The notes below the pieces were generated by a model. The model was not told the DNA's origin, made no database searches, and saw only the letters and a list, made by a program, of their open reading frames with translations. 49,757 nucleotides of DNA from an uncultured Candidatus Saccharibacteria bacterium (lineage in GTDB: Bacteria > Patescibacteriota > Doudnabacteria > UBA920), in contig CAYVOF010000001.1 in NCBI GenBank assembly GCA_964453405.1, positions 67,531-117,287 on the forward strand, written 5' to 3'. The stretch's first letter is position 1, and the number at the start of each line of letters is the position of its first letter. A program made the position numbers and the translations under genes. Below are positions 29,929 to 44,755 of the stretch, in pieces.

Positions 29929-30004
29929 TGGTGGACCTGCGGGGACTTGCACCCCGATCCTATCCTTGACGGGGGTTCGCATTTACTACTTATGCTACAG
30001 GCCC
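29929..30004 (-). tRNA. 76-nt tRNA-like element with encoded CCA but a non-pairing anticodon arm (degenerate or atypical tRNA)
   Basis: Minus-strand sequence: GGGCCTG-TA-GCAT-AAGTAGTAA-ATGC-G-AACCC-CCGTCAA-GGATA-GGAT-CGGGG-TGCAAGT-CCCCG-CAGGTCC-A-CCA. The acceptor (7 bp, one G-U), D stem (4 bp) and T stem (5 bp) pair well. The anticodon stem pairs at only 3 of 5 positions. The D-loop has no GG and the T-loop is TGC rather than TTC. Confidence 0.45.
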
Positions 30005-33960: not shown

Positions 33961-34803
33961 ATGTCGAATAAATTCCGTATAATTTTGCTTCTAGTAGTGT
34001 TTGTGGGGGTAGCTATTTTTGAAGGTCTGCCAACTCGAATAGAAAATTGGGTTAAAAGTGATAAATCTAGCACCCTGTCTGGTCAATTAACCGAGTCTTT
34101 ATCGGGTACTTTGCGTGGTCCGTTAGATAGTCGCGGCATTTTAACTGTGGCTGGTACTGTTGAGGCTACTAACAAACAACGTGAACTTTACGGGAAAAAT
34201 GCTCTTCACGTAAATTCCAAACTTAACCTTGCAGCTCAAGCTAAAGTTGAAGACATGTTTCGTCAGCAATATTTTGAACATGTCTCGCCTGATGGCAAGC
34301 ACCCATCTGATGTTATTAGTGCCACCAGTTATGAATACCTAGTAGTGGGTGAAAATTTAGCATTGGGTAATTATGAAAATGATGAAGCTTTGGTTGAAGC
34401 CTGGATGAACAGTCCTGGTCATCGCGCTAATATTTTGGATGGCAAGTTTGAAGAAATCGGCGTGGCAGTAGGAAAGGGGATGTATGAAGGCCGCGAGACT
34501 TGGTTAGCAGTGCAAGAATTTGGAACGCCTTTAGCAAGCTGCCCAGGGCCGGGTGCAAGTTTAAAAGCTAATATTGAACGCAACCGTTTGGATATCAAAA
34601 CTCAAGAAGCTAGTTTGGATCAGTTAAAGAGGAAGATTGACGCAAATAATTATTCTTCTCGCAGTGAGTACGAAGCTGATGTAGCTAGATATAATTCGCA
34701 AGCAAATCAGTTAAATAAATTGATTGATCAAACCAAATCATTGGTCAATGACTACAATATGCAAGTAAACAGTTTTAATAGATGTTTAGAAAGTGATAAG
34801 TAA
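33961..34803 (+). CDS. secreted CAP/SCP (PR-1-like) domain protein with a C-terminal coiled coil
   Basis: Signal/anchor helix. GENLALGNYENDEALVEAWMNSPGHRANIL is the CAP-domain signature. Confidence 0.8.
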   Translation: MSNKFRIILLLVVFVGVAIFEGLPTRIENWVKSDKSSTLSGQLTESLSGTLRGPLDSRGILTVAGTVEATNKQRELYGKNALHVNSKLNLAAQAKVEDMFRQQYFEHVSPDGKHPSDVISATSYEYLVVGENLALGNYENDEALVEAWMNSPGHRANILDGKFEEIGVAVGKGMYEGRETWLAVQEFGTPLASCPGPGASLKANIERNRLDIKTQEASLDQLKRKIDANNYSSRSEYEADVARYNSQANQLNKLIDQTKSLVNDYNMQVNSFNRCLESDK

Positions 34804-36134
34804 TGTCTGATAAAGTTATAGAGAAAATTAAAGTTGCGAACTTAGATATTTCTGCAACCACCAAGCAAGAATTTTTGGCAGAAGTAGATAGTATACTAAA
34901 GTCTGATCAGCAGGCTTTTATTACTACACCTAATTCAGAATTTTTGTATGCAGCACTGCGCGATAATAGTCTGCGGGATTTGTTTAACTCTGCAGATATT
35001 GCTTTGGCTGATGGTATTGCCATTTTTTGGGCTGAACGATTTTTAGCTAAACCATTTAAATTAAAGAGTTACTGGGGGAAAATCATTGAAGCTTGGTTAC
35101 AAGTAATTACAACTGGTGCGCGGATTTTGTTCACTCCAAAATATTTGTATCAAAATATCCCCGAAAAACTTACTGGAGCGGAAGTATTTTATGATTTAAT
35201 TGAATTAGCTGGTAATGAAAATAAATCAGTCTATTTTGTAAATCACCGTAGTGATTCGGCAGAAAAAACAGCGCGTATTTTAAAAGCTAAATATCCCAAC
35301 TTAAGTATTGGAGTATCGAGAAAGAATTGGGATGATAATAGCTTGCTCGAGGATATATCAATTGCTAAACCAGATATGTTGTTTGTGTCCTATGGTCAAC
35401 CGTCGCAAGAGAAATGGATAAAAAACTCTTTAAAGGATTTACCAGTTTCGATCGCTATGGGAATTGGTGGTACGTTTGATTATGCCGCGGGTTTTAAAAT
35501 TCCGCCACCACAATGGATTAGATCAATTGGTTTAGAATGGCTATTTAGATTAGTCACTCAACCAATGCGTTTGCCACGCATATATCGCGCTACTTGGGGA
35601 TTAGTAATGAGCTTGGTGAAATATAAAGTTTTTACTAGTTATGATTACAGACAGAATGTATGCGTTGTAGTTGTTAATTCGGAAAATAAAATGTTACTGT
35701 GTCATAACAATGCAAATAGAACTTCTAAGATAGGATTTGTAGTTGATAACCCAAAAAATGAATGGATGATGCCCCAAGGGGGAGTTAAGTCTGATGAGAA
35801 TACTGCACAAGCTGCCCGCAGAGAATTAGAAGAAGAAACAAATATTACTTCTGTAGAATACTTAGGTCAGGCCAATTATATTAATCAGTTTGATTGGCCA
35901 AATGGAATTCGTGATTTTTTTAAAGCTAAGCGTAAATTCCGCGGCCAAAAACAGTTCACCGTATTTTTTAGGTTTACTGGCCAGGATTCCGAAGTCAAAG
36001 TCGACCCAATTACTTTTAGCGGATGGAAGTGGGTCACCTTAGAAGACGCTGAGAAAATGGTGATTTCGTACAGACGAGAACATCTTAGAAATATAATAAA
36101 AGAGCTGTCTCAATTCCTTGAAAAAGCCTCATAA
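34803..36134 (+). CDS. WecG/TagA/CpsF-family glycosyltransferase fused to a C-terminal Nudix hydrolase domain
   Basis: The N-terminal about 280 aa carry DGIAIFWA ... YGQPSQEKWI ... GIGGTFDYAAG ... GLEWLFRL. The C-terminal Nudix box is GGVKSDENTAQAARRELEEETNI. TAATG overlap with the upstream gene. Confidence 0.8.
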   Translation: MSDKVIEKIKVANLDISATTKQEFLAEVDSILKSDQQAFITTPNSEFLYAALRDNSLRDLFNSADIALADGIAIFWAERFLAKPFKLKSYWGKIIEAWLQVITTGARILFTPKYLYQNIPEKLTGAEVFYDLIELAGNENKSVYFVNHRSDSAEKTARILKAKYPNLSIGVSRKNWDDNSLLEDISIAKPDMLFVSYGQPSQEKWIKNSLKDLPVSIAMGIGGTFDYAAGFKIPPPQWIRSIGLEWLFRLVTQPMRLPRIYRATWGLVMSLVKYKVFTSYDYRQNVCVVVVNSENKMLLCHNNANRTSKIGFVVDNPKNEWMMPQGGVKSDENTAQAARRELEEETNITSVEYLGQANYINQFDWPNGIRDFFKAKRKFRGQKQFTVFFRFTGQDSEVKVDPITFSGWKWVTLEDAEKMVISYRREHLRNIIKELSQFLEKAS

Positions 36135-36152
36135 ATATGGTAAATTTTATTC

Positions 36153-37685
36153 ATGACTGATTCAACTCCTAACAAACTAGTTCGTACTCGATTTGCTCCT
36201 AGCCCAACAGGGTTTATTCATGTTGGGAATTTTCGAACAGCATTATTTGCATTTTTGTATGCTCGTCATAATAACGGCACAGTGATCTTAAGAATTGAAG
36301 ATACTGATCAAAATCGCAAAACTGATGGTGCAGTAGAAAATTTGATCACAACAATGCACACCATGGGAGTAGATTTTGATGAAGGCGCATACTACAACAG
36401 CGGTAAAATTGAGTTTAAGGGAGACTTTGGTCCTTATGTTCAATCAGAACGTTTGGATTTGTATCAGGAGCATGCAAAGCAATTAGTAGATGATGGAAAG
36501 GCATACTATTGTTTTTGTACTCAAGAACGTTTGGATGAACTACGCAAAGAACAAACTGCTCTCAAAAAGCCACCGATGTATGATCGGCTTTGTAAAAAAC
36601 TTTCTAAAGAAGAAGTCGCTGAGAAACTAAAAGAAAATCCACATCCAGTAATTCGGCAAAGCAATCCTGATAGCGGTCAAACCGTCATCCACGATTTAGT
36701 ATATGGTGATATTACTTATGAGCACAATTTGCTCGATGATCAGGTATTACTAAAGTCTGACGGCTTTCCAACTTATCATTTAGCTGTAGTGATTGATGAT
36801 CATTTTATGGGAGTCACTCATGTCATTCGAGCTGAAGAGTGGATTCCTTCTACCCCAAAACATATTTTGTTGTATCAAGCTTTAGGTTGGGATATTCCAG
36901 AGTTTGCTCACTTGCCATTAATTTTAAATCCGGACAAAACAAAACTTTCCAAGCGTCAGGGTGATGTTTCGGTCGAAGATTTTTTGCAAAAAGGTTATTT
37001 ACCAGAAGCCTTGGTCAACTTTGTAGCTCTATTGGGTTGGAATCCAAAAACAGAACAAGAAATTTTTACCATGCAAGGATTGGTAGATAATTTTGAATTA
37101 AGCAAAGTTAACAAAGCTGGCGCAGTCTTTGATCTGAATAAACTGGATTGGATGAATGCCACTTACATTCGCACTAAAAGTCCTTCAGAAATATTAGAAC
37201 TAGTTAAACCATGGTTGGTACCATTTTTGGAAGAGAATGAATTAAATATTTCTAATTTTTCTTTAGATTTTTTGCTAGCGATAATTAAAATTGAACAAGA
37301 GCGCTTAAAAACTTTGGCACAAATCAGCGAGCAGATTTTGTTCTATTTTAAAGATCCAGAGTTTGACCAGCCAGAAGCCGGACCAGAATTAATGGTCTGG
37401 AAAAAATCTGACAAAGTAGATGCTAAACAGAAGCTGTCATTAATTGCTGAGCAGTTAAATTCTTACTCTGACTCCGATTTTACAACAGAAAATCTAGAAA
37501 CTAAGCTCAAGACTTGGATCACAGACCAAGGTTTTGATACTGGCAGTGTGTTATGGCCGCTGCGTGTAGCTCTAACAGGTTTAGGTAAGAGCCCGAGCCC
37601 ATTTGAGGTGGCTAGTACCTTATTCTTAAATGGCGGCAAGGATGCGGTTATAAAACGCTTAAATAAGGCAATAAATCTGCTCTAA
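36153..37685 (+). CDS. gltX: glutamyl-tRNA synthetase
   Basis: RFAPSPTGFIHVGNFRTAL (HIGH region), KLSKR (KMSKS), EDTD. A TGGTAAATT box ends 6 nt before the ATG. Confidence 0.95.
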   Translation: MTDSTPNKLVRTRFAPSPTGFIHVGNFRTALFAFLYARHNNGTVILRIEDTDQNRKTDGAVENLITTMHTMGVDFDEGAYYNSGKIEFKGDFGPYVQSERLDLYQEHAKQLVDDGKAYYCFCTQERLDELRKEQTALKKPPMYDRLCKKLSKEEVAEKLKENPHPVIRQSNPDSGQTVIHDLVYGDITYEHNLLDDQVLLKSDGFPTYHLAVVIDDHFMGVTHVIRAEEWIPSTPKHILLYQALGWDIPEFAHLPLILNPDKTKLSKRQGDVSVEDFLQKGYLPEALVNFVALLGWNPKTEQEIFTMQGLVDNFELSKVNKAGAVFDLNKLDWMNATYIRTKSPSEILELVKPWLVPFLEENELNISNFSLDFLLAIIKIEQERLKTLAQISEQILFYFKDPEFDQPEAGPELMVWKKSDKVDAKQKLSLIAEQLNSYSDSDFTTENLETKLKTWITDQGFDTGSVLWPLRVALTGLGKSPSPFEVASTLFLNGGKDAVIKRLNKAINLL

Positions 37686-37717: not shown

Positions 37718-39043
37718 ATGGGTAACTCTAATTTTGAGATAAAAACTAAAAAAACTAAAAAAACTAATAAAAAACTAGTTTATACTAGTTTTGTAATTCT
37801 CGCTGTTGCTATGTCTGTGACAGGATTTTTTGGTTTTCAAAAAGCTCAACAAGTTTTTGGTGCAAACGATAGAGATCGGTTACAGCTCAAACTTGACCAA
37901 CTCAAAAATCAGATCAATACATACCAAAGTCAAATTAACCAAACCCGAAACCAAGCCGCAAGTTTAAAAAATGAAATTTCAATTTACGATAATCAGATCA
38001 AATCTATTGAGTTGCAAATTGAAGCCAATCAAACCCAGACCGAAGATACAACTTTGCAAATCAATGAATTAGAAATTCAGATTCAACGTCGTCAAGAAGA
38101 AATTGAAGAGAATAAAAAAATTCTTTCTCAGTTAATAGTCCAACTTTCAAAATTAGATAACAGTTCTTTTTTGCAGATAGGTTTAGGCACCGATAATTTT
38201 TCGAGTTTCTTAGATCAAGTACAGTATGTGCGTAGCGTACAAGATCAAGTTTACTCATTAGTAACTCGAATCAAAGAAATAAAAATAAAACTCGAAACCC
38301 AACAAGCAGATTTAGAAAAATCCTTAGAACAATTAAAAATGCTTAAAGAGCAACTTTCGATTAGCCAAGATAGTTTAGAGAGTCAACGAGGGGCAAAAGA
38401 GCAATTATTAGCTCAAACAAAAGGTGTAGAAAAAAACTATCAAAAACTATTAGGCCAAACTCAAAATGAAGAAGATAAAATATTACAAGAATTAGAAGAT
38501 TTAAATAATGCAGCACAGACTGGCAAGAAAACCATTTTACCAAGTAAAGGAGTTTTAGCTTGGCCAATGGACGGTGTCTTAACTCAGGGTTATGGTAATA
38601 CTGGGTTTAAATCTTTGGGCTATAGTTTTCATAACGGAATCGACATTGCTGCTCCAGCTGGTAAGCCTATCTATGCCCCAGCAGATGGTACCGTAGCCAC
38701 TTGCGATACTGGAGAAGCCGCATACGGAAATTGGTGCACAGTTAAGCACAATATCGATACAAAGTCAGGAAAGCGTTGTATAGTTACTTTGTTCGCGCAC
38801 ATGCGTTCGATAAAAGTTAAAGGTGGCTCAAAAGTAGAAAAAGGTGATCTTATAGGTTACGAAGGAAACACTGGCAACACTACACGTTTATTGTACGGAC
38901 CGGAACGTGGGTATCATCTACACTTTACTGTGTTTGACTGCGATGGTTATAAGGTTACACCAGGAGCGCATACTGATGTTTATGGTCATTATTCTGTGCC
39001 ATCTGGTTTTACCTATAATCCAATGAGTTTCTTGGGACAATAA
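37718..39043 (+). CDS. M23 (LytM-type) peptidase with an N-terminal coiled coil (EnvC-like architecture)
   Basis: TM helix, long heptad region, HNGIDIAAPAGKPIYAPADGTV ... GNTGNTT ... HLHF. TGATATAAT ends 7 nt before the ATG. Confidence 0.85.
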   Translation: MGNSNFEIKTKKTKKTNKKLVYTSFVILAVAMSVTGFFGFQKAQQVFGANDRDRLQLKLDQLKNQINTYQSQINQTRNQAASLKNEISIYDNQIKSIELQIEANQTQTEDTTLQINELEIQIQRRQEEIEENKKILSQLIVQLSKLDNSSFLQIGLGTDNFSSFLDQVQYVRSVQDQVYSLVTRIKEIKIKLETQQADLEKSLEQLKMLKEQLSISQDSLESQRGAKEQLLAQTKGVEKNYQKLLGQTQNEEDKILQELEDLNNAAQTGKKTILPSKGVLAWPMDGVLTQGYGNTGFKSLGYSFHNGIDIAAPAGKPIYAPADGTVATCDTGEAAYGNWCTVKHNIDTKSGKRCIVTLFAHMRSIKVKGGSKVEKGDLIGYEGNTGNTTRLLYGPERGYHLHFTVFDCDGYKVTPGAHTDVYGHYSVPSGFTYNPMSFLGQ

Positions 39044-39079: not shown

Positions 39080-40144
39080 ATGAACTATTGGTTGAAAAAA
39101 ATTAAAATTGGTTTTTTAAGCCTTATAGTTTTTTTGCAACTGTTTGCGTTTATTTCGCCAGCTCAGGTTTATGCGCAGGCTCTTCCTGATCCAATAAAAA
39201 CTGACACTCAAGCTAAGACTCCTGAGGAGCTTCCAGTTTATAATGCTGGTGTTGATAAAAGTATTCAAGATTATTTATGTACACCGCAAGGTAATGGCAC
39301 AGATTTATTTGACTGTGTAGATCGCTTGTATCGTTTTGGAATATCGGCTGGTGCGATCATGGTAGTGTTCTTTATTGTTTACGCAGGATATATTTATATC
39401 ACCGGTGGGGAAGCGTCTAAGACTAAGGCCAAGCAAACAATCTATTCGGCTCTCACTGGCTTGGCGATTATGTTAGGAAGTTTTGTGTTACTCAACTTTA
39501 TTAATCCGAATTTGACTAAGATTAAACCAATTCAGCCGCCGATTTTTAGTGCTTTAGATTTGCCAAGTTGTGAGGAAATAGGTTTTGCTGAGAAGTGTAT
39601 AATAAGTACAGGTGGGAGTGCAGGGCAGGTTGTTAATCCTAGTACTGGCTCTGGTGGTGCAGGTGCAGGTAGTTGTAAAATTATGAACTCTGGTGCTTGC
39701 GCGGTGCAAAATATGAAATTATGCCCTGATTGGAACCCAGAGGATGCCTCTCGTGTGTGTAATTTGGAGAGTGCTGGTGGTGCGAATTTAACAATTGCTA
39801 GTGGATCAGATAAATGTTCGGACGGAACCTCATTTTCTTATGGCTTGTGGCAGATTAACTTAACTGCTCATCAGGGACAACCATATATGCCAGCTGCATG
39901 CCAGAAGACTTTGTTTAGCGGCAAGAATTTTAGCTGCAAATTGATCGTAAGCAAAGCCGAGCTACAGGCTTGCGTTACGGCATTGGGAGATGTAGCCGCC
40001 CAAACTAAGGTAGCTTGTGGTTTGTATAAGGGTCGCGGAGGAAATTTTAAAGATTGGATATGTTCTGCGTATCGTTGCAAAATCCCCGGTCCGTATTCTG
40101 GAGCAAGTAGCAGTAAGTTTTGTCAAACTTTTCCTCCGAGGTAA
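39080..40144 (+). CDS. T4SS-pilin/TrbC-like membrane module fused to a Cys-rich lysozyme-like (transglycosylase) domain
   Basis: Signal peptide and two TM helices around ITGGEASKTKAK (VirB2/TrbC-like topology). The C-terminal NLESAGG...SFSYGLWQINL resembles the catalytic Glu plus GLxQI motif of lysozyme-like enzymes. Confidence 0.6.
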   Translation: MNYWLKKIKIGFLSLIVFLQLFAFISPAQVYAQALPDPIKTDTQAKTPEELPVYNAGVDKSIQDYLCTPQGNGTDLFDCVDRLYRFGISAGAIMVVFFIVYAGYIYITGGEASKTKAKQTIYSALTGLAIMLGSFVLLNFINPNLTKIKPIQPPIFSALDLPSCEEIGFAEKCIISTGGSAGQVVNPSTGSGGAGAGSCKIMNSGACAVQNMKLCPDWNPEDASRVCNLESAGGANLTIASGSDKCSDGTSFSYGLWQINLTAHQGQPYMPAACQKTLFSGKNFSCKLIVSKAELQACVTALGDVAAQTKVACGLYKGRGGNFKDWICSAYRCKIPGPYSGASSSKFCQTFPPR

Positions 40145-40171
40145 TATTTTGTTAATCAAATTTTATATTTT

Positions 40172-40612
40172 ATGAGTATTGAAAAGAAATTACTAATCGC
40201 TTTAATAGTTACAATAGTTTTGTGTGGTGTAGCTATATTGTTATTTATGCGTTCTAAAAATTCTGATACGGTTTCTGTAACTCCGGATTTAGAGCAAGTT
40301 TTAGAAAGCAAGGCTATTAAATCAGAACAAGACATACTAACCTTTGTTGACACAGGAAAGTACTTCATTACCTACAACAAAGTGAGTAAAGAATTTTTAA
40401 TTGTATTATTACCTTCAGAACAAATTAATCAAGAAATAAATGATCTCCGAACCCAAGCCGAAAGTGAGTTAATGACCATAGTTAGTATGGACAACTTAGC
40501 TATCTGTAGTCTTAAAGTTTCGCTAATTATACCCCCATCATACTGGCCAGAAATGTCCGGGGTTGATTACGGATTAAGTGGTTGTGGTAATTTTATTCCT
40601 TTTAATAAATAA
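40172..40612 (+). CDS. hypothetical membrane-anchored protein (146 aa)
   Basis: ORF with an N-terminal TM helix. No family recognised. Confidence 0.5.
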   Translation: MSIEKKLLIALIVTIVLCGVAILLFMRSKNSDTVSVTPDLEQVLESKAIKSEQDILTFVDTGKYFITYNKVSKEFLIVLLPSEQINQEINDLRTQAESELMTIVSMDNLAICSLKVSLIIPPSYWPEMSGVDYGLSGCGNFIPFNK

Positions 40613-40613
40613 G

Positions 40614-41333
40614 ATGAATAACGAAGAACATAAAAATAATGTATCGCCCCGCAATCCCATGCCTATTATTATTACCATTATAATAGCCGCGTGGTTAGTT
40701 GGGATCAGTGTGTTGGGTGCTGGATGGTTGATTGCAAAAGAAATTTCTAAGCAGAGCACCAATGATTCCAGTGATATAACTAAAACAAATGAACCAATTA
40801 ATATAGAGATACCAAGGTATAAGTCCCAACAGGGGAGTGATGACGCCAAGGTCACTGTAATTGAATTTGCAGATTTTCAATGTCCGTTCTGCGGGGAGTG
40901 GCAAAAAACTATTTATCCTAAATTGAAAAGTGATTATATAGATACAGGTAAAGTTAAGTTTGTATATTGGGATTTAGCCTTTTTAGGTGATGAATCAATA
41001 AAAGCTGCCGAAGCGGCTATTTGTGCCAAGGACCAAGATAAGTTTTGGGAATTTCATGATCGTTTATTTGCCGGACAATATGGGGAAAATCAAGGTGCTT
41101 TTAGTGACGTAAATTTAAAAAAAATAGCCGCAGAATTAGGTTTAGAAACCAAAATTTTTAATAAATGTTTTGACGAAGGTCTCTATAAATCATTAGTCGA
41201 AGATTCAAACAATATGGCTCAAACTTACGGTGTTAATTCTACACCAACTGTATTTGTCAACGGTTTAAAGTTTGAGGGTGTGATGCCGTTTGAGAATTTA
41301 AAACAAGTAATAGACTCTGCTCTTGCAAAATAA
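40614..41333 (+). CDS. DsbA-like thiol:disulfide oxidoreductase (membrane anchored)
   Basis: TM helix and a thioredoxin fold with FQCPFCGEW (CxxC). ATG at 40614 preferred over the track start at 40578. Confidence 0.85.
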   Translation: MNNEEHKNNVSPRNPMPIIITIIIAAWLVGISVLGAGWLIAKEISKQSTNDSSDITKTNEPINIEIPRYKSQQGSDDAKVTVIEFADFQCPFCGEWQKTIYPKLKSDYIDTGKVKFVYWDLAFLGDESIKAAEAAICAKDQDKFWEFHDRLFAGQYGENQGAFSDVNLKKIAAELGLETKIFNKCFDEGLYKSLVEDSNNMAQTYGVNSTPTVFVNGLKFEGVMPFENLKQVIDSALAK

Positions 41334-42366
41334 ACTATCTAAATTAATAGTTACTATTGGGCTGGTTGTGTTAGCTGTGAATCCGATTTTTGTGTATGCG
41401 CAAAATCCACCTAAGACAACTACCACAGTTGTCAAAGAACCAAACACCTCAACTACGGAGGAACTTCCAGTTTATAACGCTGGCGTAGACCGCAGCATTC
41501 AAGATTATTTGTGTACACCAAGCGAGCCCGCTGATGGTCATGACCTAGAACGCTGTGTGAATCGCTTGTTCAGGTTTACGGTTACTGCAGGCGCATTGAT
41601 TGTATTGTTTATGGTGGTCTTTGCAGGATACATGTATATCACGGGTGGCGAGCAAGCCAAAACTAAAGCAAAAGGTTATCTTCAAAATTCTCTGACAGGC
41701 ATGGCGATATTATTAGGTAGCTACCTATTGCTGTACTTTATAAACCCGACACTCACGCAGTTTAAACCAATTCAGCCACCGATTTTTGATGCAGCAGATT
41801 TACCAAGTTGTGAAGAAATCGGGTTTTCTAAAAGTTGTGTAATTCAAGCTGGTGAGGATGTTCCTGGAAATTCACCAGTTGTAGTTGTAGCAGGTGGAAG
41901 TAGCGGTGGTACAGCAGTTGCCTGTACAACTGGAATGTCTACACTTTCTGAGTACGGGGTGCCAACAAAAGATGGCCGAAGCTTGCCAATTTGTAAGTCT
42001 TTGGGCCCAAAGGTTAAGGCAGCATATGAGGCATCAAAAATCGAAAAATGGCGAGCTACAGCTACTGTTGATCCTGGTCATTCTAGTAGATGTCATAAAC
42101 CTGTAAACCCAGAAAATGGTAACTGTGTTGATATTGGAACAGGTGATGGTGATAGAAGCACAGCTCGTTGGGATAAAATATGCGCAGCGTTTAAACAACA
42201 AGGCGGTGTTTCTATAGCTAATGAAATTGCGCCAAAGTCAGCAAGTGGTTCTGCTCTTGCCGCTTATGCAACACCCAATTGTGGTCCTGCAAAGGACAAG
42301 TCTACAAAGGTGTATCAATTTGCTAGTGATGCACCATCAATACATGTTAATTACACAGGTCGTTAA
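41323..42366 (+). CDS. paralog of 39080..40144: same pilin-like membrane module, different C-terminal domain (possibly a LAS/M15-like metallopeptidase)
   Basis: The N-terminal module shares EELPVYNAGVD.SIQDYLCTP, ITGGE..KTKAK and KPIQPPIF...DLPSCEEIGF with the paralog. The C-terminal HSSRCHKPVNPENGNCVDIG ... SIHVNY is only loosely H...D...H-like. TTG start overlaps the dsbA-like stop. Confidence 0.55.
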   Translation: MQNKLSKLIVTIGLVVLAVNPIFVYAQNPPKTTTTVVKEPNTSTTEELPVYNAGVDRSIQDYLCTPSEPADGHDLERCVNRLFRFTVTAGALIVLFMVVFAGYMYITGGEQAKTKAKGYLQNSLTGMAILLGSYLLLYFINPTLTQFKPIQPPIFDAADLPSCEEIGFSKSCVIQAGEDVPGNSPVVVVAGGSSGGTAVACTTGMSTLSEYGVPTKDGRSLPICKSLGPKVKAAYEASKIEKWRATATVDPGHSSRCHKPVNPENGNCVDIGTGDGDRSTARWDKICAAFKQQGGVSIANEIAPKSASGSALAAYATPNCGPAKDKSTKVYQFASDAPSIHVNYTGR

Positions 42367-42476: not shown

Positions 42477-42734
42477 ATGAAGCAAAAAATGGTTCTTTAT
42501 GGCATAGGTATATTTATCGTTGGGCTTTTAGTAGGTGGTCTGTACGTGGATAGGTTTGGGTCACCAATTCACTTAAAAGGCCAGAACTCTTCGGCAAATG
42601 TACAATACACATGTGCTCAACTACTTTGGTATATTGATCACACATCTGGTCCTGCCCAACATTCTTGGACAACTATTTACAATTCTCAATGTAGTCATGA
42701 TGTGTTTCCGGTATCACCAAGCATATCCGAATAA
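42477..42734 (+). CDS. small hypothetical membrane protein (85 aa)
   Basis: ORF with an N-terminal TM helix. A TATAAT box (42465-42470) lies 6 nt upstream of the ATG, and a strong terminator follows. Confidence 0.45.
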   Translation: MKQKMVLYGIGIFIVGLLVGGLYVDRFGSPIHLKGQNSSANVQYTCAQLLWYIDHTSGPAQHSWTTIYNSQCSHDVFPVSPSISE

Positions 42735-42783: not shown

Positions 42784-42840
42784 AATTGAGTCTTATTAAG
42801 CGGAAGTTCAGTGGTTAGTGGTTGTCAGCATCACCACACC

Positions 42841-42857
42841 ATGTCGCATAAGATACA
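42841..42857 (+). repeat. 17-bp direct repeat, copy 1 (ATGTCGCATAAGATACA)
   Basis: Identical 17-mer at 44454-44470. The flanks show weaker similarity (CAGT..TAGTG upstream, GCG..ACG.CGG downstream). Confidence 0.8.
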
Positions 42858-43139
42858 ACGCGTAACGTCGGACAGTTAGAAAATAACCCACCTAGTTATA
42901 AGGAACACACCATTGGTGTGTTTTCTTATTGGATTCGACTAAAAAAGAACATAAAAATGCAAAAAACCGTCAAAGGAGACGGCAAATGTATCTTGTGTAA
43001 TGTGGGAGGGTTAAAAAGCTAACTCCGAACTCTTGTATATAGGATATAGGGAGCAAAATTTGTACCTTATATTCTGGCTACAAGAGTCAGACGCACAATA
43101 CAGAATTGTGCGACTTGATCTTTGACAAATTGGGTGAAT

Positions 43140-43174
43140 AAAAAAGCCCGTCTATCAAACACAATAGACGAGCC
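43140..43174 (-). terminator. rho-independent terminator of the small minus-strand CDS (coordinates +/-1)
   Basis: On the minus strand: GCTCGTCTAT-TGTGTTTG-ATAGACGGGC followed by a T-run, 8 nt after the stop codon. Confidence 0.6.
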
Positions 43175-43181
43175 TTGTAAC

Positions 43182-43334
43182 CTAGCGGTTCTTACGTTTG
43201 CACTCTGAGCACAGACGATAACCACCTTTACCACGAGCAACATTTTCGTCTTCAATGTTGTTTCCAAGATTGCAGTCGTGGTTATTGTGGTACACCTCGG
43301 TGGTGTCTGTAGAATGCCATTCGTCACGAGCCAT
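43182..43334 (-). CDS. small conserved-looking Cys-motif protein, 50 aa (MARDEWHSTDTTEVYHNNHDCNLGNNIEDENVARGKGGYRLCSECKRKNR)
   Basis: Hand translation; the ORF is below the track cut-off. It has its own terminator. The pattern VYH..(3)..C..G..I ... G.GG..LC..C resembles a widespread family of tiny bacterial proteins that I remember only vaguely. Caveat: my manual base count of an A-run (about 43140-43145) and a T-run (about 43319-43321) differs by one base each from the frames implied by the supplied ORF track. Coordinates follow the track frame. With my count, the same body would start at GTG 43327. Confidence 0.5.
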   Translation of the reverse strand: MARDEWHSTDTTEVYHNNHDCNLGNNIEDENVARGKGGYRLCSECKRKNR

Positions 43335-43776
43335 TTTACACAAAAGTTCTCTTCCTTACCATAGGGAAGACTATTTCAGAAAGCTTAATTGTCTGTTACG
43401 ACCTCCTGGGTATATTTATGTCTTGCTTGCGTTTTGAAAAGAATCTAGAGTTTTGTCTTTCTTTCATTACGTTTACTCGAGAATAAGTATTACTCACGGT
43501 ACGTACTTCCTATAAATCAAAACACCACCAGTAATTTCGCTACTAGTGGTGTCCTGATAATCAGGTCGGACCATTCGAGAGCGAAATTAACGAATGATTT
43601 CTGATTTGTTACTGGTATTGTACATTTGTTCACCCTGTTTGTCAAGGATCAGTTCTTTGTAAAATCGAAGGGGGAGACGGTTCATGTCTTTTGGGCGATA
43701 TCTACGAAGGAGGTGTTGACCTATTAGATTAATTCGTTGGCTCTATGATATACTGGGTTTAAATAACAATCCTTAT

Positions 43777-44010
43777 ATGAGAGATTTAACCCCTGAGGAA
43801 ATAGCAAATATTTTAAATACACAGTTAAATATTGGTACTGAAACAGCTTGGGTAGAAGTATCTGGCACCCTTGGCTTACCTCAGACAGATTTGTCGAACC
43901 CTGATTCTATTAATGTAAAGTTTGACCAAACAGTAGTAGTGAAAGCCTTTCTTAATACTCACACTAAAGAAATTAAATTATATCCACTAAAAGCAATTAT
44001 TGGAGATTAG
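43777..44010 (+). CDS. hypothetical protein (77 aa)
   Basis: ORF preceded by TTGACC ... TATGATATACT promoter-like boxes. No family recognised. Confidence 0.4.
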   Translation: MRDLTPEEIANILNTQLNIGTETAWVEVSGTLGLPQTDLSNPDSINVKFDQTVVVKAFLNTHTKEIKLYPLKAIIGD

Positions 44011-44011
44011 T

Positions 44012-44293
44012 ATGGCAAAAGACTTAGGTAGCAAAAGTAAATTAGATAAAGCTATAGAAAGATGGGATTATCTTTTTTGGGCTGTTATATCAATCTTGGG
44101 AGTAGGTGTAATAACCATGATATTTATGGTCGCAGGTATGGTTATTCAAGCATGGCAAACTAGACCAATACCCCAGTACTATGGTAACCAGCAGCAGATA
44201 ATTGATAAATTAAATAAGATAGAAGCACAGCAAAATATACAAGTTATCAAAACAGGGGAGAGTACCCCACCCCAACCAGTTCCAAATCAATAA
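44012..44293 (+). CDS. hypothetical single-TM protein (93 aa from ATG 44012)
   Basis: The ATG lies 2 nt after the upstream stop. TM helix LFWAVISILGVGVITMIFMVAGMVI. Confidence 0.45.
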   Translation: MAKDLGSKSKLDKAIERWDYLFWAVISILGVGVITMIFMVAGMVIQAWQTRPIPQYYGNQQQIIDKLNKIEAQQNIQVIKTGESTPPQPVPNQ

Positions 44294-44307
44294 TATGAAT
44301 TAAACCG

Positions 44308-44326
44308 ACCACCCAAGCAGGGTGGT
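44308..44326 (+). terminator. hairpin after the two small ORFs
   Basis: ACCACCC-AAGCA-GGGTGGT. The trailing T-run is short, so termination may be weak. Confidence 0.4.
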
Positions 44327-44453
44327 TTAAACTTACACAGCAATAAAAATAATTAATTAAATACTTTTAATAACTAATGGACAACATAACAATAAAAAGT
44401 TTATGATGGTCAGTTAGTGTATGGGATCAGAACCTAGAGATTAAAAGAATATA

Positions 44454-44470
44454 ATGTCGCATAAGATACA
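44454..44470 (+). repeat. 17-bp direct repeat, copy 2 (ATGTCGCATAAGATACA)
   Basis: Identical to 42841-42857. Here it overlaps a TATAAT box (44450-44455) and forms the hairpin GTCGCA-(12 nt)-TGCGAC. Confidence 0.8.
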
Positions 44471-44755
44471 TTGTGCGACGCGGTATCAATCTCAAAAGTA
44501 TATATCCCCTATGTATTTTGGGGTTTAATTTACAATTGCTATTTGAATTGTAATTCCCTGCTCTTGTGCCGGCACTGGTGTCTTCTGAATAGTTTATATT
44601 CTATTTATTATATTCTCTAAGTTTAATATATTGCGCATACGGTATATAAGTTCGAACGTCACCTATAAAAAGTATTATCACCTATTGAATACTTTAAGGG
44701 ACTCAGTTAGTATAGATATAAGTTAAATTTGAATTCTTAGGAGGAATAATAATTT

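What the first reader, a model, noticed from the sequence alone, without database searches (positions are those of the whole stretch)
39080..42366. Two paralogs share a T4SS-pilin/TrbC-like membrane module but carry different Cys-rich 'heads', flanking a DsbA-like oxidoreductase
Residues about 48-175 of 39080..40144 and about 45-170 of 41323..42366 are highly similar: EELPVYNAGVD.SIQDYLCTP, two TM helices around ITGGE..KTKAK, and KPIQPPIF...DLPSCEEIGF. The C-terminal domains are unrelated to each other. One has NLESAGG...SYGLWQINL (lysozyme/lytic-transglycosylase-like). The other has HSSRCHKP...NCVDIG...SIHVNY (perhaps LAS-type metallopeptidase-like).

Between the two paralogs lie a small membrane protein and a membrane-anchored DsbA (CPFC), which fits disulfide formation in these Cys-rich exported domains. 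An M23 peptidase gene sits immediately upstream.

This looks like a cassette system in which a conserved pilin-like membrane or display module presents exchangeable peptidoglycan-hydrolase domains. Its role could be self-wall remodelling or attack on a host cell wall.
Basis: partly seen in the sequence, partly recalled or inferred. Interest (0 to 1): 0.62.

Follow-up and report, generated by a model that had tools for sequence, protein, structure and literature searches.

The report
Pilin-anchored cell-wall hydrolases, swappable heads
An ultra-small (Patescibacteria) bacterium carries a conserved operon in which two different cell-wall-cutting enzymes hang from the same membrane hairpin, a relative of secretion-system pilins, and related genomes put at least ten other wall-cutting enzymes on that hairpin; I found no paper describing this design.

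Summary
ORFs 39080..40144 and 41323..42366 share a ~190-residue N-module (55% identity, E 4e-66) and have unrelated Cys-rich C-termini. They flank a small membrane protein and a CPFC DsbA and follow a coiled-coil M23 peptidase.

The N-module has a signal peptide, two TM helices and a disulfide-bearing connector. It is below Pfam's cut-off for T4SS_pilin, but its profile hits this genome's true VirB2-like pilins at 5e-15.

Head A keeps an invariant ES...GLWQ motif and aligns weakly with SLT and lysozymes. Head B models confidently as a Hedgehog/DD-peptidase (LAS) fold with invariant H, D, E and H.

In about 240 relatives the same module carries SLT, CHAP, M23+M15, M15_4/VanY, amidase, C39-like or GDSL heads. 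The N-module tree shows repeated head swaps. The operon gltX–M23–fusions is conserved in all 20 loci sampled from about 17 other genera of the family and is never beside the T4SS genes.

My best reading (about 0.45) is tethered hydrolases acting on the cell's own wall. The main rival (about 0.33) is enzyme-armed pilus subunits that breach a host wall. This is a new variant of known kinds and is already seen repeatedly in this scan.

The parts
33961..37685 (+). Conserved upstream part of the operon: CAP-domain protein (33961..34803), WecG/NUDIX fusion (34803..36134) and glutamyl-tRNA synthetase (36153..37685).
   Evidence: Pfam CAP 4e-16. The same gene order precedes the fusions in 17 loci of close relatives and in 20 loci of other genera; CAP is not always present.
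37718..39043 (+). Membrane-anchored coiled-coil M23 (LytM-type) endopeptidase. The HxxxD (HNGID) and HxH (HLH) motifs are intact.
   Evidence: Pfam Peptidase_M23 1.2e-22. NCBIfam gives sub-threshold hits to DipM, MepM and EnvC-type models plus SMC-like coiled coil. It lies directly upstream of the first fusion gene in every locus that extends that far.
39080..40144 (+). Fusion protein A (354 aa): signal peptide, pilin-like hairpin module, Gly-rich linker and head A.
   Evidence: ORF. 55% identical to B over the N-module. 24 of 118 first-search relatives carry the same head class.
39080..39598 (+). N-module of A. Signal peptide residues 1-32 (cleavage after VYA); exposed segment with Cys67 and Cys79; TM1 about 82-111; cytoplasmic loop TGGEASKTKAK; TM2 about 120-143; connector NPNLTKIKPIQPPIFSALDLPSCEEIGFAEKC with Cys164 and Cys173.
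   Evidence: Hydropathy and Cys positions. Invariant columns across 150 relatives. Profile hit to true PF18895 pilins at 5e-15. Pfam T4SS_pilin 17.1 bits, below the cut-off.
39674..40141 (+). Head A: a 12-Cys lysozyme-like domain. The putative catalytic Glu230 (codon 39767..39769) sits in the motif NLES; the GLWQIN motif is at residues 255-260.
   Evidence: Invariant E, G, Q and W and five invariant Cys in 16 relatives. AF2 pLDDT 90.3. Pfam SLT_3 hits 6 of 16 members (best 3e-4) and SLT hits 4 of 16. A profile hits human lysozyme C at E 0.026. hhalign to SLT heads gives E 1.5e-4 and 2e-4 with the motifs aligned. Foldseek is weak only: DslA and MltE at E about 3; LT_GEWL and SLT phage proteins at E 0.2-0.7.
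40172..40612 (+). Small single-TM extracytoplasmic protein (146 aa, 'type I', two conserved Cys). It is a candidate cognate regulator or inhibitor of the glycosidase head.
   Evidence: A gene of 146-185 aa occupies this position in most loci. Two unrelated types co-vary with the glycosidase head class. No Pfam or PDB match for type I. Type II has weak IseA-inhibitor hits in 3 of 10 members.
40614..41333 (+). Membrane-anchored DsbA-like thiol:disulfide oxidoreductase (CPFC).
   Evidence: Pfam Thioredoxin_4 5e-38 and DSBA 4e-17. NCBIfam gives sub-threshold DsbA and DsbG hits. The gene is present in all loci of the genus with Cys-rich glycosidase heads and absent where the head has 2 Cys.
41323..42366 (+). 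Fusion protein B (347 aa, TTG start overlapping the dsbA stop by 11 nt): signal peptide (1-26), pilin-like hairpin module (to Cys172, nt 41838), linker and head B.
   Evidence: ORF. Pfam T4SS_pilin 19.0 bits and TrbC 14.9 bits, both below cut-off. N-module profile score 249 bits.
41893..42363 (+). Head B: a 6-Cys Hedgehog/DD-peptidase (LAS)-fold domain. Invariant His258 (42094), Asp270 (42130), Glu301 (42223) and His341 (42343).
   Evidence: Invariant columns in 21 relatives (numbering). AF2 pLDDT 91.7 with all five models at 89.6 or above. Foldseek against PDB: ranks 1-46 are all Hedgehog N-domains or VanXY/VanY/VldE, probability up to 0.94, TM 0.4-0.5, E from 0.04. No sequence-level match to Pfam, PDB or M15_4 heads.

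Best explanation
The locus is the tail of a vertically inherited core operon of one Patescibacteria family: (CAP)-wecG/NUDIX-gltX-M23-fusions. It encodes a set of peptidoglycan-cutting enzymes that share one membrane module.

What the sequence shows or implies:
- Each fusion protein is exported by Sec and loses a signal peptide at VYA|Q.
- It then sits in the membrane as a two-helix hairpin with a positively charged cytoplasmic loop. The hairpin is homologous to the VirB2-like (PF18895) pilins of the same genome.
- Unlike those pilins, which end after the second helix, the hairpin here continues outside the cell. The order is a conserved two-Cys connector, a Gly-rich linker and an enzymatic head.
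- Head A is a divergent lysozyme/SLT-like glycan-strand cutter.
- Head B is a zinc peptidase of the Hedgehog/DD-peptidase (LAS) fold.
- Together with the upstream coiled-coil M23 endopeptidase, the operon covers both glycan and peptide bonds.

What I infer:
- The many disulfides of the heads are made by the operon's own DsbA.
- The small membrane protein encoded after the glycosidase is its cognate regulator or inhibitor.
- Over evolutionary time, heads are exchanged by recombination at the linker while the hairpin stays.
- The linker is only about 20-25 residues, and the operon is linked to a division-type M23 gene, not to the T4SS genes. I therefore think the enzymes most likely work while tethered, on the cell's own wall. 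That could be septum splitting, or local openings for envelope machines (a VirB1-like job).

The confidence given (0.45) is for the whole statement including the own-wall target. For the architecture alone (pilin-derived hairpin carrying exchangeable extracytoplasmic wall hydrolases) I would say about 0.85.
For: Architecture:
- Shared module at 55% identity, E 4e-66.
- Signal peptide, two hydrophobic helices, and even Cys counts of 16 and 10.
- 15 invariant and 29 nearly invariant columns of the module across 150 relatives.

Homology to pilins:
- The module profile hits the seven-gene PF18895 array on contig 21 at 5e-15 to 1e-6.
- PF18895 is hit by 23 of 75, 34 of 75 and 60 of 77 relatives at E <= 1e-3.
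- The array pilins end after TM2.

Heads are wall hydrolases:
- Head A.
- Head B.
- Heads in relatives are SLT, M23, M15, M15_4, VanY, CHAP, C39_2, Amidase_2, GDSL and phage lysozyme.

Swapping:
- Head classes are interspersed within both N-module clades. Examples: an Amidase_2 head sister to a CHAP head (SH-aLRT 99); an SLT head paired with a head-A protein inside a 96-supported clade.

Core operon:
- The same gene order occurs in 17 close loci and in 20 loci from about 17 other genera, with no VirB4 or VirB6 within 10 kb.
- 75 of 95 genomes and 25 of 28 genera of the family have the module at E <= 1e-25.
- The T4SS core of this genome lies on another contig.

DsbA and partner:
- DsbA presence matches Cys-rich glycosidase heads in 16 of 16 loci. 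Median Cys is 12 for head A, 10 for SLT-b and 2 for SLT-a.
- Two types of small protein co-vary with the glycosidase class.

Division-type M23:
- Coiled coil plus an intact LytM domain, with DipM, EnvC and MepM-type hits.
Against: - Nothing here shows enzymatic activity, localisation or target.
- Head A's fold matches are weak (Foldseek E 0.2-3, TM 0.23-0.42) and its Pfam hits are below threshold.
- Head B has no sequence-level link to any peptidase family. I could not inspect the metal-site geometry of the model.
- The extracellular parts of the module are far more conserved than a plain anchor needs.
- Non-homologous heads are swapped between congeneric species. That pattern is more typical of enzymes aimed at varying foreign walls than of housekeeping autolysins.
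- The genome has other wall hydrolases (three more M23, one SLT, one M15_4-like), so the operon is not needed to explain basic autolysis.
- The DsbA link rests on 2-3 independent changes (sign test p 0.5). It fails outside the genus: 8 loci have Cys-rich heads and no dsbA nearby.
- Earlier notes of this scan report such fusions beside T4SS genes in other lineages. I did not test this.
Confidence: 0.45

Rival explanations
1. Enzyme-armed pilus. The hairpin is still a working VirB2-type pilin. The T4SS (VirB4, PrgI and VirB6 on contig 4) extracts the fusions from the membrane and builds them, as minor or tip subunits, into the filament made from the contig-21 pilin array. The filament then carries glycosidase and peptidase heads that open the wall of the host bacterium at the contact site.
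For: - The module is homologous to true pilins and its extracellular segments are strongly conserved.
- The array pilins of this genome already carry bulky N-terminal domains: 269-, 276- and 366-aa members. Large decorations therefore seem to be tolerated.
- The T4SS is present in 90 of 95 genomes of the family.
- The T4SS cluster examined here has no hydrolase of its own among the ORFs scanned. Published work notes that most Patescibacteria T4SS lack VirB1 (PMC12102498).
- Head swapping between congeners fits adaptation to different host walls.
- The T4SS and pilin array are essential for epibiotic growth in S. epibionticum (PMC10633639; PMC12857230).
- Earlier scan notes report fusions next to T4SS genes in other lineages (untested here).
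Against: - In this family the fusions are never near T4SS genes in the loci examined: 17 close and 20 distant.
- They sit behind a division-type M23 gene.
- G004 keeps an intact fusion while its virB4 reads as fragments with stops. G054 and G055 have a fusion but no VirB4 hit. Assembly error is possible in all three.
- The two window proteins score below the pilin family's cut-off.
- Polymerisation cannot be tested with these tools.
Confidence: 0.33
2. Released effectors with immunity. The hairpin is only an export and holding device. The heads are clipped off at the Gly-rich linker and act as soluble wall-degrading toxins against host or competitor bacteria. The small membrane protein downstream of the glycosidase is the immunity protein.
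For: - A small extracytoplasmic protein follows the glycosidase gene and changes type together with the glycosidase head.
- Type II has weak IseA-like inhibitor hits.
- Polymorphic heads sit on a constant N-terminal module.
- A flexible Gly/Ser linker lies between module and head.
Against: - No partner gene follows the peptidase fusions.
- No protease site or processing enzyme is evident.
- The operon is core and syntenic, not mobile or variable in position.
- The inhibitor hits are far below threshold (E 0.024).
Confidence: 0.1
3. The heads are not enzymes. They are Cys-rich binding or adhesion domains on lysozyme-like and Hedgehog-like scaffolds, which recognise wall or surface glycans without cutting.
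For: - Hedgehog N-domains themselves act as ligands.
- In the window's head B the first His of the usual H-x-H is Ser (SIH), and this position varies in relatives.
- Head A lacks the third SLT motif and has weak fold matches.
Against: - The candidate catalytic and metal residues (E230; H258, D270, E301, H341) are invariant across relatives only 24-39% identical, with a few closer.
- The same gene positions in relatives hold bona fide SLT, M23, M15, CHAP and amidase domains with strong Pfam scores, 1e-14 to 1e-29.
Confidence: 0.07

Closest known systems
VirB2-like pilins of Patescibacteria (Pfam PF18895 T4SS_pilin; tandem pilin arrays described by Quinonero-Coronel et al. 2025, PMC12102498, and Wang et al. 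2023, PMC10633639)
   Same: Signal peptide plus a two-helix hairpin with a short basic loop. Detectable profile homology (5e-15 to this genome's own array). Several paralogs per genome.
   Different: - Array pilins end after the second helix and vary at the N-terminus. Here a conserved two-Cys connector, a linker and a 150-380-aa enzyme follow the hairpin.
- The module is far more conserved (48% mean column identity) than published arrays (about 25% average identity; PMC12102498).
- In this family the genes are not in or near the T4SS cluster or the pilin array.
VirB1-like multidomain hydrolases of Gram-positive conjugation systems (PrgK of pCF10: LytM+SLT+CHAP; TraG of pIP501: SLT+CHAP; as summarised in PMC12102498)
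   Same: Membrane-anchored, extracytoplasmic, with the same repertoire of catalytic domains (M23/LytM, SLT, CHAP). Their presumed job is local opening of a thick wall.
   Different: - There the domains are strung on one polypeptide with a simple N-terminal anchor and encoded inside the transfer operon.
- Here each domain has its own pilin-type hairpin, the set is split over 2-4 genes, and the operon is chromosomal, core and unlinked to the T4SS.
Modular type IV pilins (for example PilB of Streptococcus sanguinis, a pilin with a grafted vWA module; PMC8179133, seen)
   Same: The design principle: a functional globular module grafted on the C-terminal side of a pilin moiety.
   Different: - A different, unrelated pilin class (type IV pili, prepilin-peptidase signal).
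- The modules there are adhesive, not wall hydrolases.
- No swapping series has been described.
Hedgehog/DD-peptidase (LAS) zinc enzymes: VanX/VanXY/VanY (M15) and the Hedgehog N-domain
   Same: Predicted fold of head B (Foldseek probability up to 0.94). An invariant His...Asp...His set plus a Glu.
   Different: - No sequence-level match to any M15 model.
- 11 residues lie between the His and Asp candidates, and there is a 20-40-residue insert before the last His.
- Six conserved Cys.
- Found only fused to the pilin module in my searches.
Family-1 lytic transglycosylases / lysozyme-like superfamily (Pfam SLT PF01464, SLT_3 PF18896; C-type lysozyme)
   Same: Head A keeps Glu-Ser and G-L-x-Q motifs in the right order and spacing. 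These align with the motifs of SLT heads at the same gene position and with the GIFQIN stretch of human lysozyme.
   Different: - All scores are below family thresholds.
- There is no AYNxG-type third motif.
- 10-12 Cys.
- Structure search finds only weak matches.

Membership tests
PF18895 T4SS_pilin / VirB2-like pilin | Score at or above the Pfam gathering threshold (26.6 bits) | tested here: not met
   17.1 bits (A) and 19.0 bits (B). Whole-genome scan gives 20.7 and 22.7 bits.
PF18895 T4SS_pilin / VirB2-like pilin | Homology to accepted members | tested here: met
   The N-module profile hits six above-threshold PF18895 pilins of contig 21 at 4.7e-15 to 1.2e-6, and the seventh only at E 0.018. 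117 of 227 relatives hit PF18895 at E <= 1e-3, and 6 hit TrbC.
PF18895 T4SS_pilin / VirB2-like pilin | Signal peptide followed by two hydrophobic helices joined by a short charged loop | tested here: met
   Hydropathy windows 82-111 and 120-143 in A and 81-110 in B; loop TGGE.KTKAK; VYA|Q cleavage motif.
PF18895 T4SS_pilin / VirB2-like pilin | Small protein that ends shortly after the second helix | tested here: not met
   About 210 further residues follow TM2 in both proteins. The seven array pilins end within about 10 residues of TM2.
PF18895 T4SS_pilin / VirB2-like pilin | Encoded in or next to the T4SS cluster or pilin array | tested here: not met
   VirB4, PrgI and VirB6 are on contig 4 and the array is on contig 21, while the locus is on contig 1. 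There are no T4SS genes within 10 kb in 20 loci of other genera.
PF18895 T4SS_pilin / VirB2-like pilin | Polymerises into an extracellular filament | not testable with these tools
   Needs microscopy or biochemistry.
SLT / lysozyme-like superfamily (head A) | Pfam SLT or SLT_3 above threshold | tested here: not met
   SLT_3 gives 15 bits against a cut-off of 27 for the window's head. The best among 16 relatives is E 2.9e-4.
SLT / lysozyme-like superfamily (head A) | Conserved catalytic Glu (E-S) and G-L-x-Q motifs | tested here: met
   E230, G255 and Q258 are invariant in 16 sequences. They align to the ES and GL(T/M)Q motifs of Pfam-positive SLT heads.
SLT / lysozyme-like superfamily (head A) | Lysozyme-like fold | tested here: inconclusive
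   Model pLDDT is 90. Foldseek's best named hits are lysozyme-like (DslA, MltE, LT_GEWL, SLT), but E is 0.2-4 and TM 0.23-0.42.
LAS / Hedgehog-DD-peptidase fold (head B) | Fold similarity to solved members | tested here: met
   Foldseek PDB ranks 1-46 are all Hedgehog-N, VanXY, VanY or VldE. Probability is up to 0.94, TM 0.4-0.53, and the best E is 0.04, above the usual 1e-3. Model pLDDT is 91.7.
LAS / Hedgehog-DD-peptidase fold (head B) | His, Asp, His zinc ligands (plus a catalytic acid) conserved | tested here: inconclusive
   H258, D270, E301 and H341 are invariant in 21 sequences. I could not read the model coordinates to confirm that they form one site.
LAS / Hedgehog-DD-peptidase fold (head B) | Sequence match to Peptidase_M15, M15_4 or VanY models | tested here: not met
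   No Pfam hit at E <= 10. No PDB sequence or profile hit to such enzymes. hhalign to M15_4 heads gives probability 1.3%.
DsbA-type oxidoreductase (40614..41333) | Thioredoxin fold with a CxxC motif, exported or membrane-anchored | tested here: met
   Thioredoxin_4 5e-38, DSBA 4e-17, CPFC motif, N-terminal TM helix.
Gram-positive T4SS VirB1-like hydrolase (PrgK/TraG type) | Several hydrolase domains on one anchored polypeptide encoded in the transfer operon | tested here: not met
   There is one head per protein, and the operon is not linked to the T4SS genes.

The most novel reading that the evidence does not exclude
The fusions are genuine subunits of a VirB2-type filament built by a monoderm bacterium. 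The Patescibacterial T4SS would polymerise ordinary pilins together with these modular pilins. The pilus would then carry an interchangeable, complementary set of peptidoglycan-cutting enzymes (glycosidase, endopeptidase/carboxypeptidase, amidase, esterase). This set would bore through the host bacterium's wall and would be re-tooled by head swapping when the host changes. It would also explain why these T4SS clusters lack a VirB1 gene.
Probability: 0.3. Interest if true: 0.88.

Novelty: new variant of a known kind. Interest (0 to 1): 0.62.

Why it matters
Patescibacteria make up a large share of bacterial diversity and live attached to other microbes. Their T4SS and VirB2-like pilins are essential for that life in the one species tested (PMC10633639), yet what the system does is unknown and its expected wall-opening enzyme (VirB1) is usually missing (PMC12102498).

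A large family in which the pilin module itself carries the wall-cutting enzymes gives a concrete, testable link between pilins and wall breaching. In my searches, 1183 50%-identity clusters match at E <= 1e-10, though that count also takes in ordinary pilins. Alternatively, the family shows how a pilin was recycled as a universal anchor for the cell's own autolysins.

It also adds two unannotated enzyme families: a 12-Cys lysozyme-like domain and a bacterial Hedgehog-fold peptidase. It provides a natural series of domain swaps on one scaffold, and a candidate glycosidase-partner pair. All of this can be tested in existing Saccharibacteria co-culture systems.

Tried and rejected
- Sequence searches of the two heads alone gave nothing usable beyond SLT_3 at E 0.035. 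These covered Pfam at E <= 10, PDB phmmer and PHROGs.
- A profile of head B against PDB sequences found only chance hits.
- hhalign of head B against the M15_4 heads found no similarity.
- Word-index searches for head B relatives, with a single sequence and with the alignment, found only pilin-fused close relatives and no stand-alone forms.
- Co-occurrence of fusions with VirB4 across the family cannot discriminate between the models, because both are nearly universal (75/95 and 90/95).
- The idea that this operon holds all the wall hydrolases of the genome is rejected. Three further M23 genes, one SLT and one M15_4-like gene exist elsewhere, although Amidase_3 and NlpC/P60 are absent.
- The idea that gene position 1 is always a glycosidase holds for the genus-level loci (16 of 16) but not across the family.
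- DsbA linkage as a general rule is rejected outside the genus.
- Recent gene conversion between the two N-modules is rejected (68% DNA identity).
- The small proteins gave no convincing family or structure match.
- The ARAGORN tRNA-Leu call inside the M23 gene is not supported by Rfam.

Full report
**1. Observation**

The two ORFs are real and lie at the stated coordinates. Their products align over residues 15-199 (A) and 8-201 (B) with 55% identity, E = 4e-66. The rest does not align.

- Between them lie a 146-aa single-TM protein and a thioredoxin-fold protein with a CPFC motif (Thioredoxin_4 5e-38). That protein most likely starts at ATG 40614.
- Upstream is a membrane-anchored coiled-coil M23 peptidase with intact HxxxD and HxH motifs.
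- Gene B starts at a TTG that overlaps the dsbA stop.
- Gaps between the genes are 2-36 nt and no convincing terminator lies inside the block, so this reads as one operon.
- The window belongs to a 1.02-Mb genome that is 96% complete.
- Related loci come from MAGs labelled Candidatus Saccharibacteria, Doudnabacteria or Patescibacteria group.

**2. The shared module**

In order it consists of:
- a Sec signal peptide (VYA|Q);
- an exposed segment with two invariant Cys;
- a hydrophobic helix;
- the loop TGGE.GKTKAK;
- a second helix;
- the connector INPxLxxxKPIQPPIFxxxxLPSCExxGFxxxC.

The positive loop places both ends outside, so the heads are extracytoplasmic. That fits their even Cys counts (12 and 6) and the DsbA.

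Pfam's T4SS_pilin model scores 17-19 bits, below its 26.6 cut-off. Three results still establish homology:
- The genome has a seven-gene array of above-threshold PF18895 pilins on contig 21.
- A profile built from 30 N-modules hits six of those pilins at 4.7e-15 to 1.2e-6.
- 117 of 227 relatives reach E <= 1e-3 against PF18895, most often the more distant ones.

So the module is a derived member of the VirB2-like pilin superfamily.

There is a clear difference in anatomy. The array pilins carry their variable part at the N-terminus and stop right after the second helix. The fusions extend at the C-terminus.

**3. Head A**

- Sixteen relatives (24-86% identical) keep an invariant Glu in an E-S/T motif, G-x-x-Q in G(L/I/V/M)(W/F/Y/M)Q, a Trp and five Cys.
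- The AF2 model is confident (pLDDT 90.3).
- Sequence evidence for a lysozyme-like enzyme is consistent but weak:
  - SLT_3 hits 6 of 16 members (best 2.9e-4) and SLT hits 4 of 16.
  - A profile hits human lysozyme C at E 0.026 over the GIFQIN region.
  - hhalign to the Pfam-positive SLT heads that occupy the same gene position in relatives gives E 1.5e-4 and 2e-4, with ES on ES and GLWQ on GL(T/M)Q.
- Fold search gives only weak matches. The best named ones are lysozyme-like: DslA and MltE at E about 3; phage LT_GEWL and SLT proteins at E 0.2-0.7 with TM up to 0.42.
- I read head A as a strongly diverged glycan-strand-cleaving domain. Whether it is a hydrolase or a lytic transglycosylase is open.

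**4. Head B**

- Twenty-one relatives (26-38% identical to the window's copy, one at 68%) keep His258, Asp270, Asn300-Glu301, His341 and six Cys invariant.
- All five AF2 models agree (pLDDT 89.6-91.7).
- The first 46 Foldseek matches in the PDB are all Hedgehog N-terminal domains or VanXY/VanY/VldE D,D-peptidases. Probability is up to 0.94 and TM 0.4-0.53, with best E 0.04.
- No sequence method links it to M15 families.
- I found no copies outside the pilin fusion.
- From memory, the stretch VDIGTGDGDRS resembles the zinc-site strand of Sonic hedgehog, and the NE...H-x-H order matches its Glu and His. This is a lead, not a test.

**5. Exchangeable heads**

- A search with the N-module alone returned 118 proteins whose C-termini fall into 11 unrelated clusters.
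- An exhaustive profile search found 122 clusters (at 50% identity) at E <= 1e-30 and 1183 at <= 1e-10.
- Pfam labels the heads as SLT, Peptidase_M23 plus M15 (VanX-like), M15_4, VanY, CHAP, C39_2, Amidase_2, GDSL/DUF459 and phage lysozyme.
- The window's two classes are the commonest and carry no Pfam label.
- All labelled heads act on peptidoglycan or belong to families that do.
- In a tree of 42 N-modules the first-position modules form one clade and the later ones another (SH-aLRT 91). Within each clade the head classes are interspersed:
  - an Amidase_2 protein is sister to a CHAP protein (99);
  - a head-A protein pairs with an SLT protein inside a 96-supported clade;
  - a head-A protein pairs with an SLT-b protein (94);
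  - two paralogs of one genome with GDSL and M23+M15 heads are sisters (98).
- Heads have therefore been replaced repeatedly on a persisting module. The conserved part ends at a GQV motif and a Gly-rich linker, which is a plausible recombination site.

**6. Operon and distribution**

- In 17 loci of close relatives the order is CAP, WecG/NUDIX, GltX, coiled-coil M23, fusion 1, small protein, (DsbA), (fusion 2), last fusion.
- There, fusion 1 always carries a glycosidase-type head (head A, SLT-a or SLT-b). The last fusion carries a peptidase (head B or M23+M15). GDSL, M15_4, CHAP or amidase heads sit in between.
- In the family, 75 of 95 genomes and 25 of 28 genera have the module at E <= 1e-25. 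In the genus, 25 of 26 genomes have one to three copies.
- Twenty loci from about 17 other genera all show WecG/NUDIX-GltX-M23 followed by one to four fusions. None has VirB4 or VirB6 within 10 kb. The order of heads is less strict there.
- This genome's T4SS core lies on contig 4: VirB4 with P-loop_TraG 2e-25, PrgI, and a 1371-aa TrbL/VirB6 protein.
- VirB4 is present in 90 of 95 genomes, so co-occurrence says nothing.

**7. DsbA and the small protein**

- Median Cys counts of the glycosidase heads are 12 (head A), 10 (SLT-b) and 2 (SLT-a).
- In the 16 genus-level loci where this can be scored, dsbA is present exactly where the head is Cys-rich. The two traits change together three times on the tree. 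That gives only 2-3 independent pairs and no statistical weight.
- In other genera, Cys-rich heads occur without a neighbouring dsbA.
- The small protein after fusion 1 comes in two unrelated types that follow the glycosidase class. Type I has two Cys and goes with head A and SLT-b. Type II goes with SLT-a.
- Type II gives weak hits to the IseA endopeptidase-inhibitor family in 3 of 10 members, best E 0.024. Type I matches nothing.
- A cognate regulator or inhibitor is my inference from position and co-variation only.

**8. Mechanism**

Shown by sequence:
- export, hairpin topology and heads outside;
- homology of the hairpin to pilins;
- wall-hydrolase nature of the heads in the family;
- head replacement;
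- core synteny with a division-type M23 gene.

Inferred:
- activity of heads A and B;
- oxidative folding by the DsbA;
- the role of the small protein.

The target is open.

- A tethered enzyme with a 20-25-residue linker can reach only the cell's own wall. Together with the synteny and the lack of T4SS linkage in this family, this makes own-wall cutting my first choice (about 0.45). That would be septum splitting, or local openings for the T4SS and type IV pili.
- The armed-pilus model (about 0.33) better explains the strong conservation of the exposed parts of the module, the swapping between congeners, and the missing VirB1 of Patescibacterial T4SS clusters (PMC12102498). The array pilins of this genome already carry bulky domains.
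- Released effectors (about 0.1) and non-enzymatic binding heads (about 0.07) are less likely.

**9. Comparison with what is known**

- VirB2-like pilin arrays and the essential T4SS of Patescibacteria are published (PMC12102498, PMC10633639, PMC12857230).
- Gram-positive VirB1-like hydrolases combine LytM, SLT and CHAP on one anchored chain.
- Modular type IV pilins exist in streptococci.
- I found no paper describing VirB2-type pilin modules fused to wall hydrolases, although only open-access text was searchable.
- One database source names such a protein 'D-alanyl-D-alanine carboxypeptidase/Type IV secretion system pilin', so the domain pair is visible to annotation pipelines.
- Earlier notes of this scan describe the same design in at least ten other genomes. 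They agree with this report but are not independent evidence.
  - the gene-position structure within the genus;
  - the co-variation of DsbA and of the small protein with the glycosidase class;
  - the family-wide synteny without T4SS linkage;
  - fold assignments for the two unlabelled head classes.

**10. Verdict**

This is a new variant of known kinds, of real interest for Patescibacterial cell biology. It is tempered by the unresolved target and by the fact that the class has already surfaced repeatedly in this scan.

Noticed in passing
G000 contig 21, 4181-9058 (minus strand; not in the window): Seven tandem above-threshold PF18895 pilin genes (147-366 aa). Three carry 150-250-aa N-terminal extracellular domains, and all end right after the second TM helix. 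FtsH lies next to them and there are no T4SS genes on that contig.
   Followed up: partly
G000 contig 4, 13876-23907 (minus strand; not in the window): T4SS core: VirB4-like ATPase (639 aa), PrgI/VirB3-like protein (151 aa), a 1371-aa TrbL/VirB6-like protein with a large N-terminal exposed domain, and a 397-aa membrane protein. No hydrolase, relaxase or coupling protein was seen among the ORFs looked at.
   Followed up: partly
window 38553-38626 (+) and 29932-30004 (-): ARAGORN reports one tRNA-Leu(CAG) inside the M23 coding region, which Rfam does not confirm. Rfam finds a tRNA at 29932-30004 on the minus strand (44.9 bits), which ARAGORN did not list.
   Followed up: no
proteins P0172, P0173, P0186, P0192, P0195, P0239 (relatives): Proteins of 461-916 aa that contain three or four pilin-type hairpin modules in one chain, i.e. 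tandem 'poly-pilins'.
   Followed up: no
relatives P0015, P0051, P0053, P0054, P0061 and others: Long forms of the head-B proteins carry a second C-terminal domain of about 200 aa with a SDHGxGxAxD...H motif of VanY/M15 type. These proteins therefore bear two different LAS-type peptidase domains in series.
   Followed up: no
window 42477-42734 (+): An 85-aa ORF with one TM helix and two Cys lies 110 nt after gene B and has no family match. It is followed by an AT-rich stretch of about 2 kb with few ORFs, which another first-stage note flags (42790-44755).
   Followed up: no
G004 contig 4, 57976-59837 (relative genome): The virB4 homolog reads as six fragments with several stop codons, while the pilin-hydrolase fusion on the same contig (135241-135672 region, 362-aa frame) is intact. 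This is either a decaying T4SS or assembly error.
   Followed up: no
G000 contig 2, 81650-82417 (minus strand): A stand-alone 255-aa protein related to the M15_4 heads (3.7e-9). It is the only other relative of any head class in this genome.
   Followed up: no
window 39080-40144, NCBIfam result: The hairpin of protein A gives a weak hit (E 0.008) to the Mbov_0395 family 'pilin-like conjugal transfer protein' of mycoplasma ICEs. This hints that the module class extends to other wall-poor or monoderm lineages.
   Followed up: no
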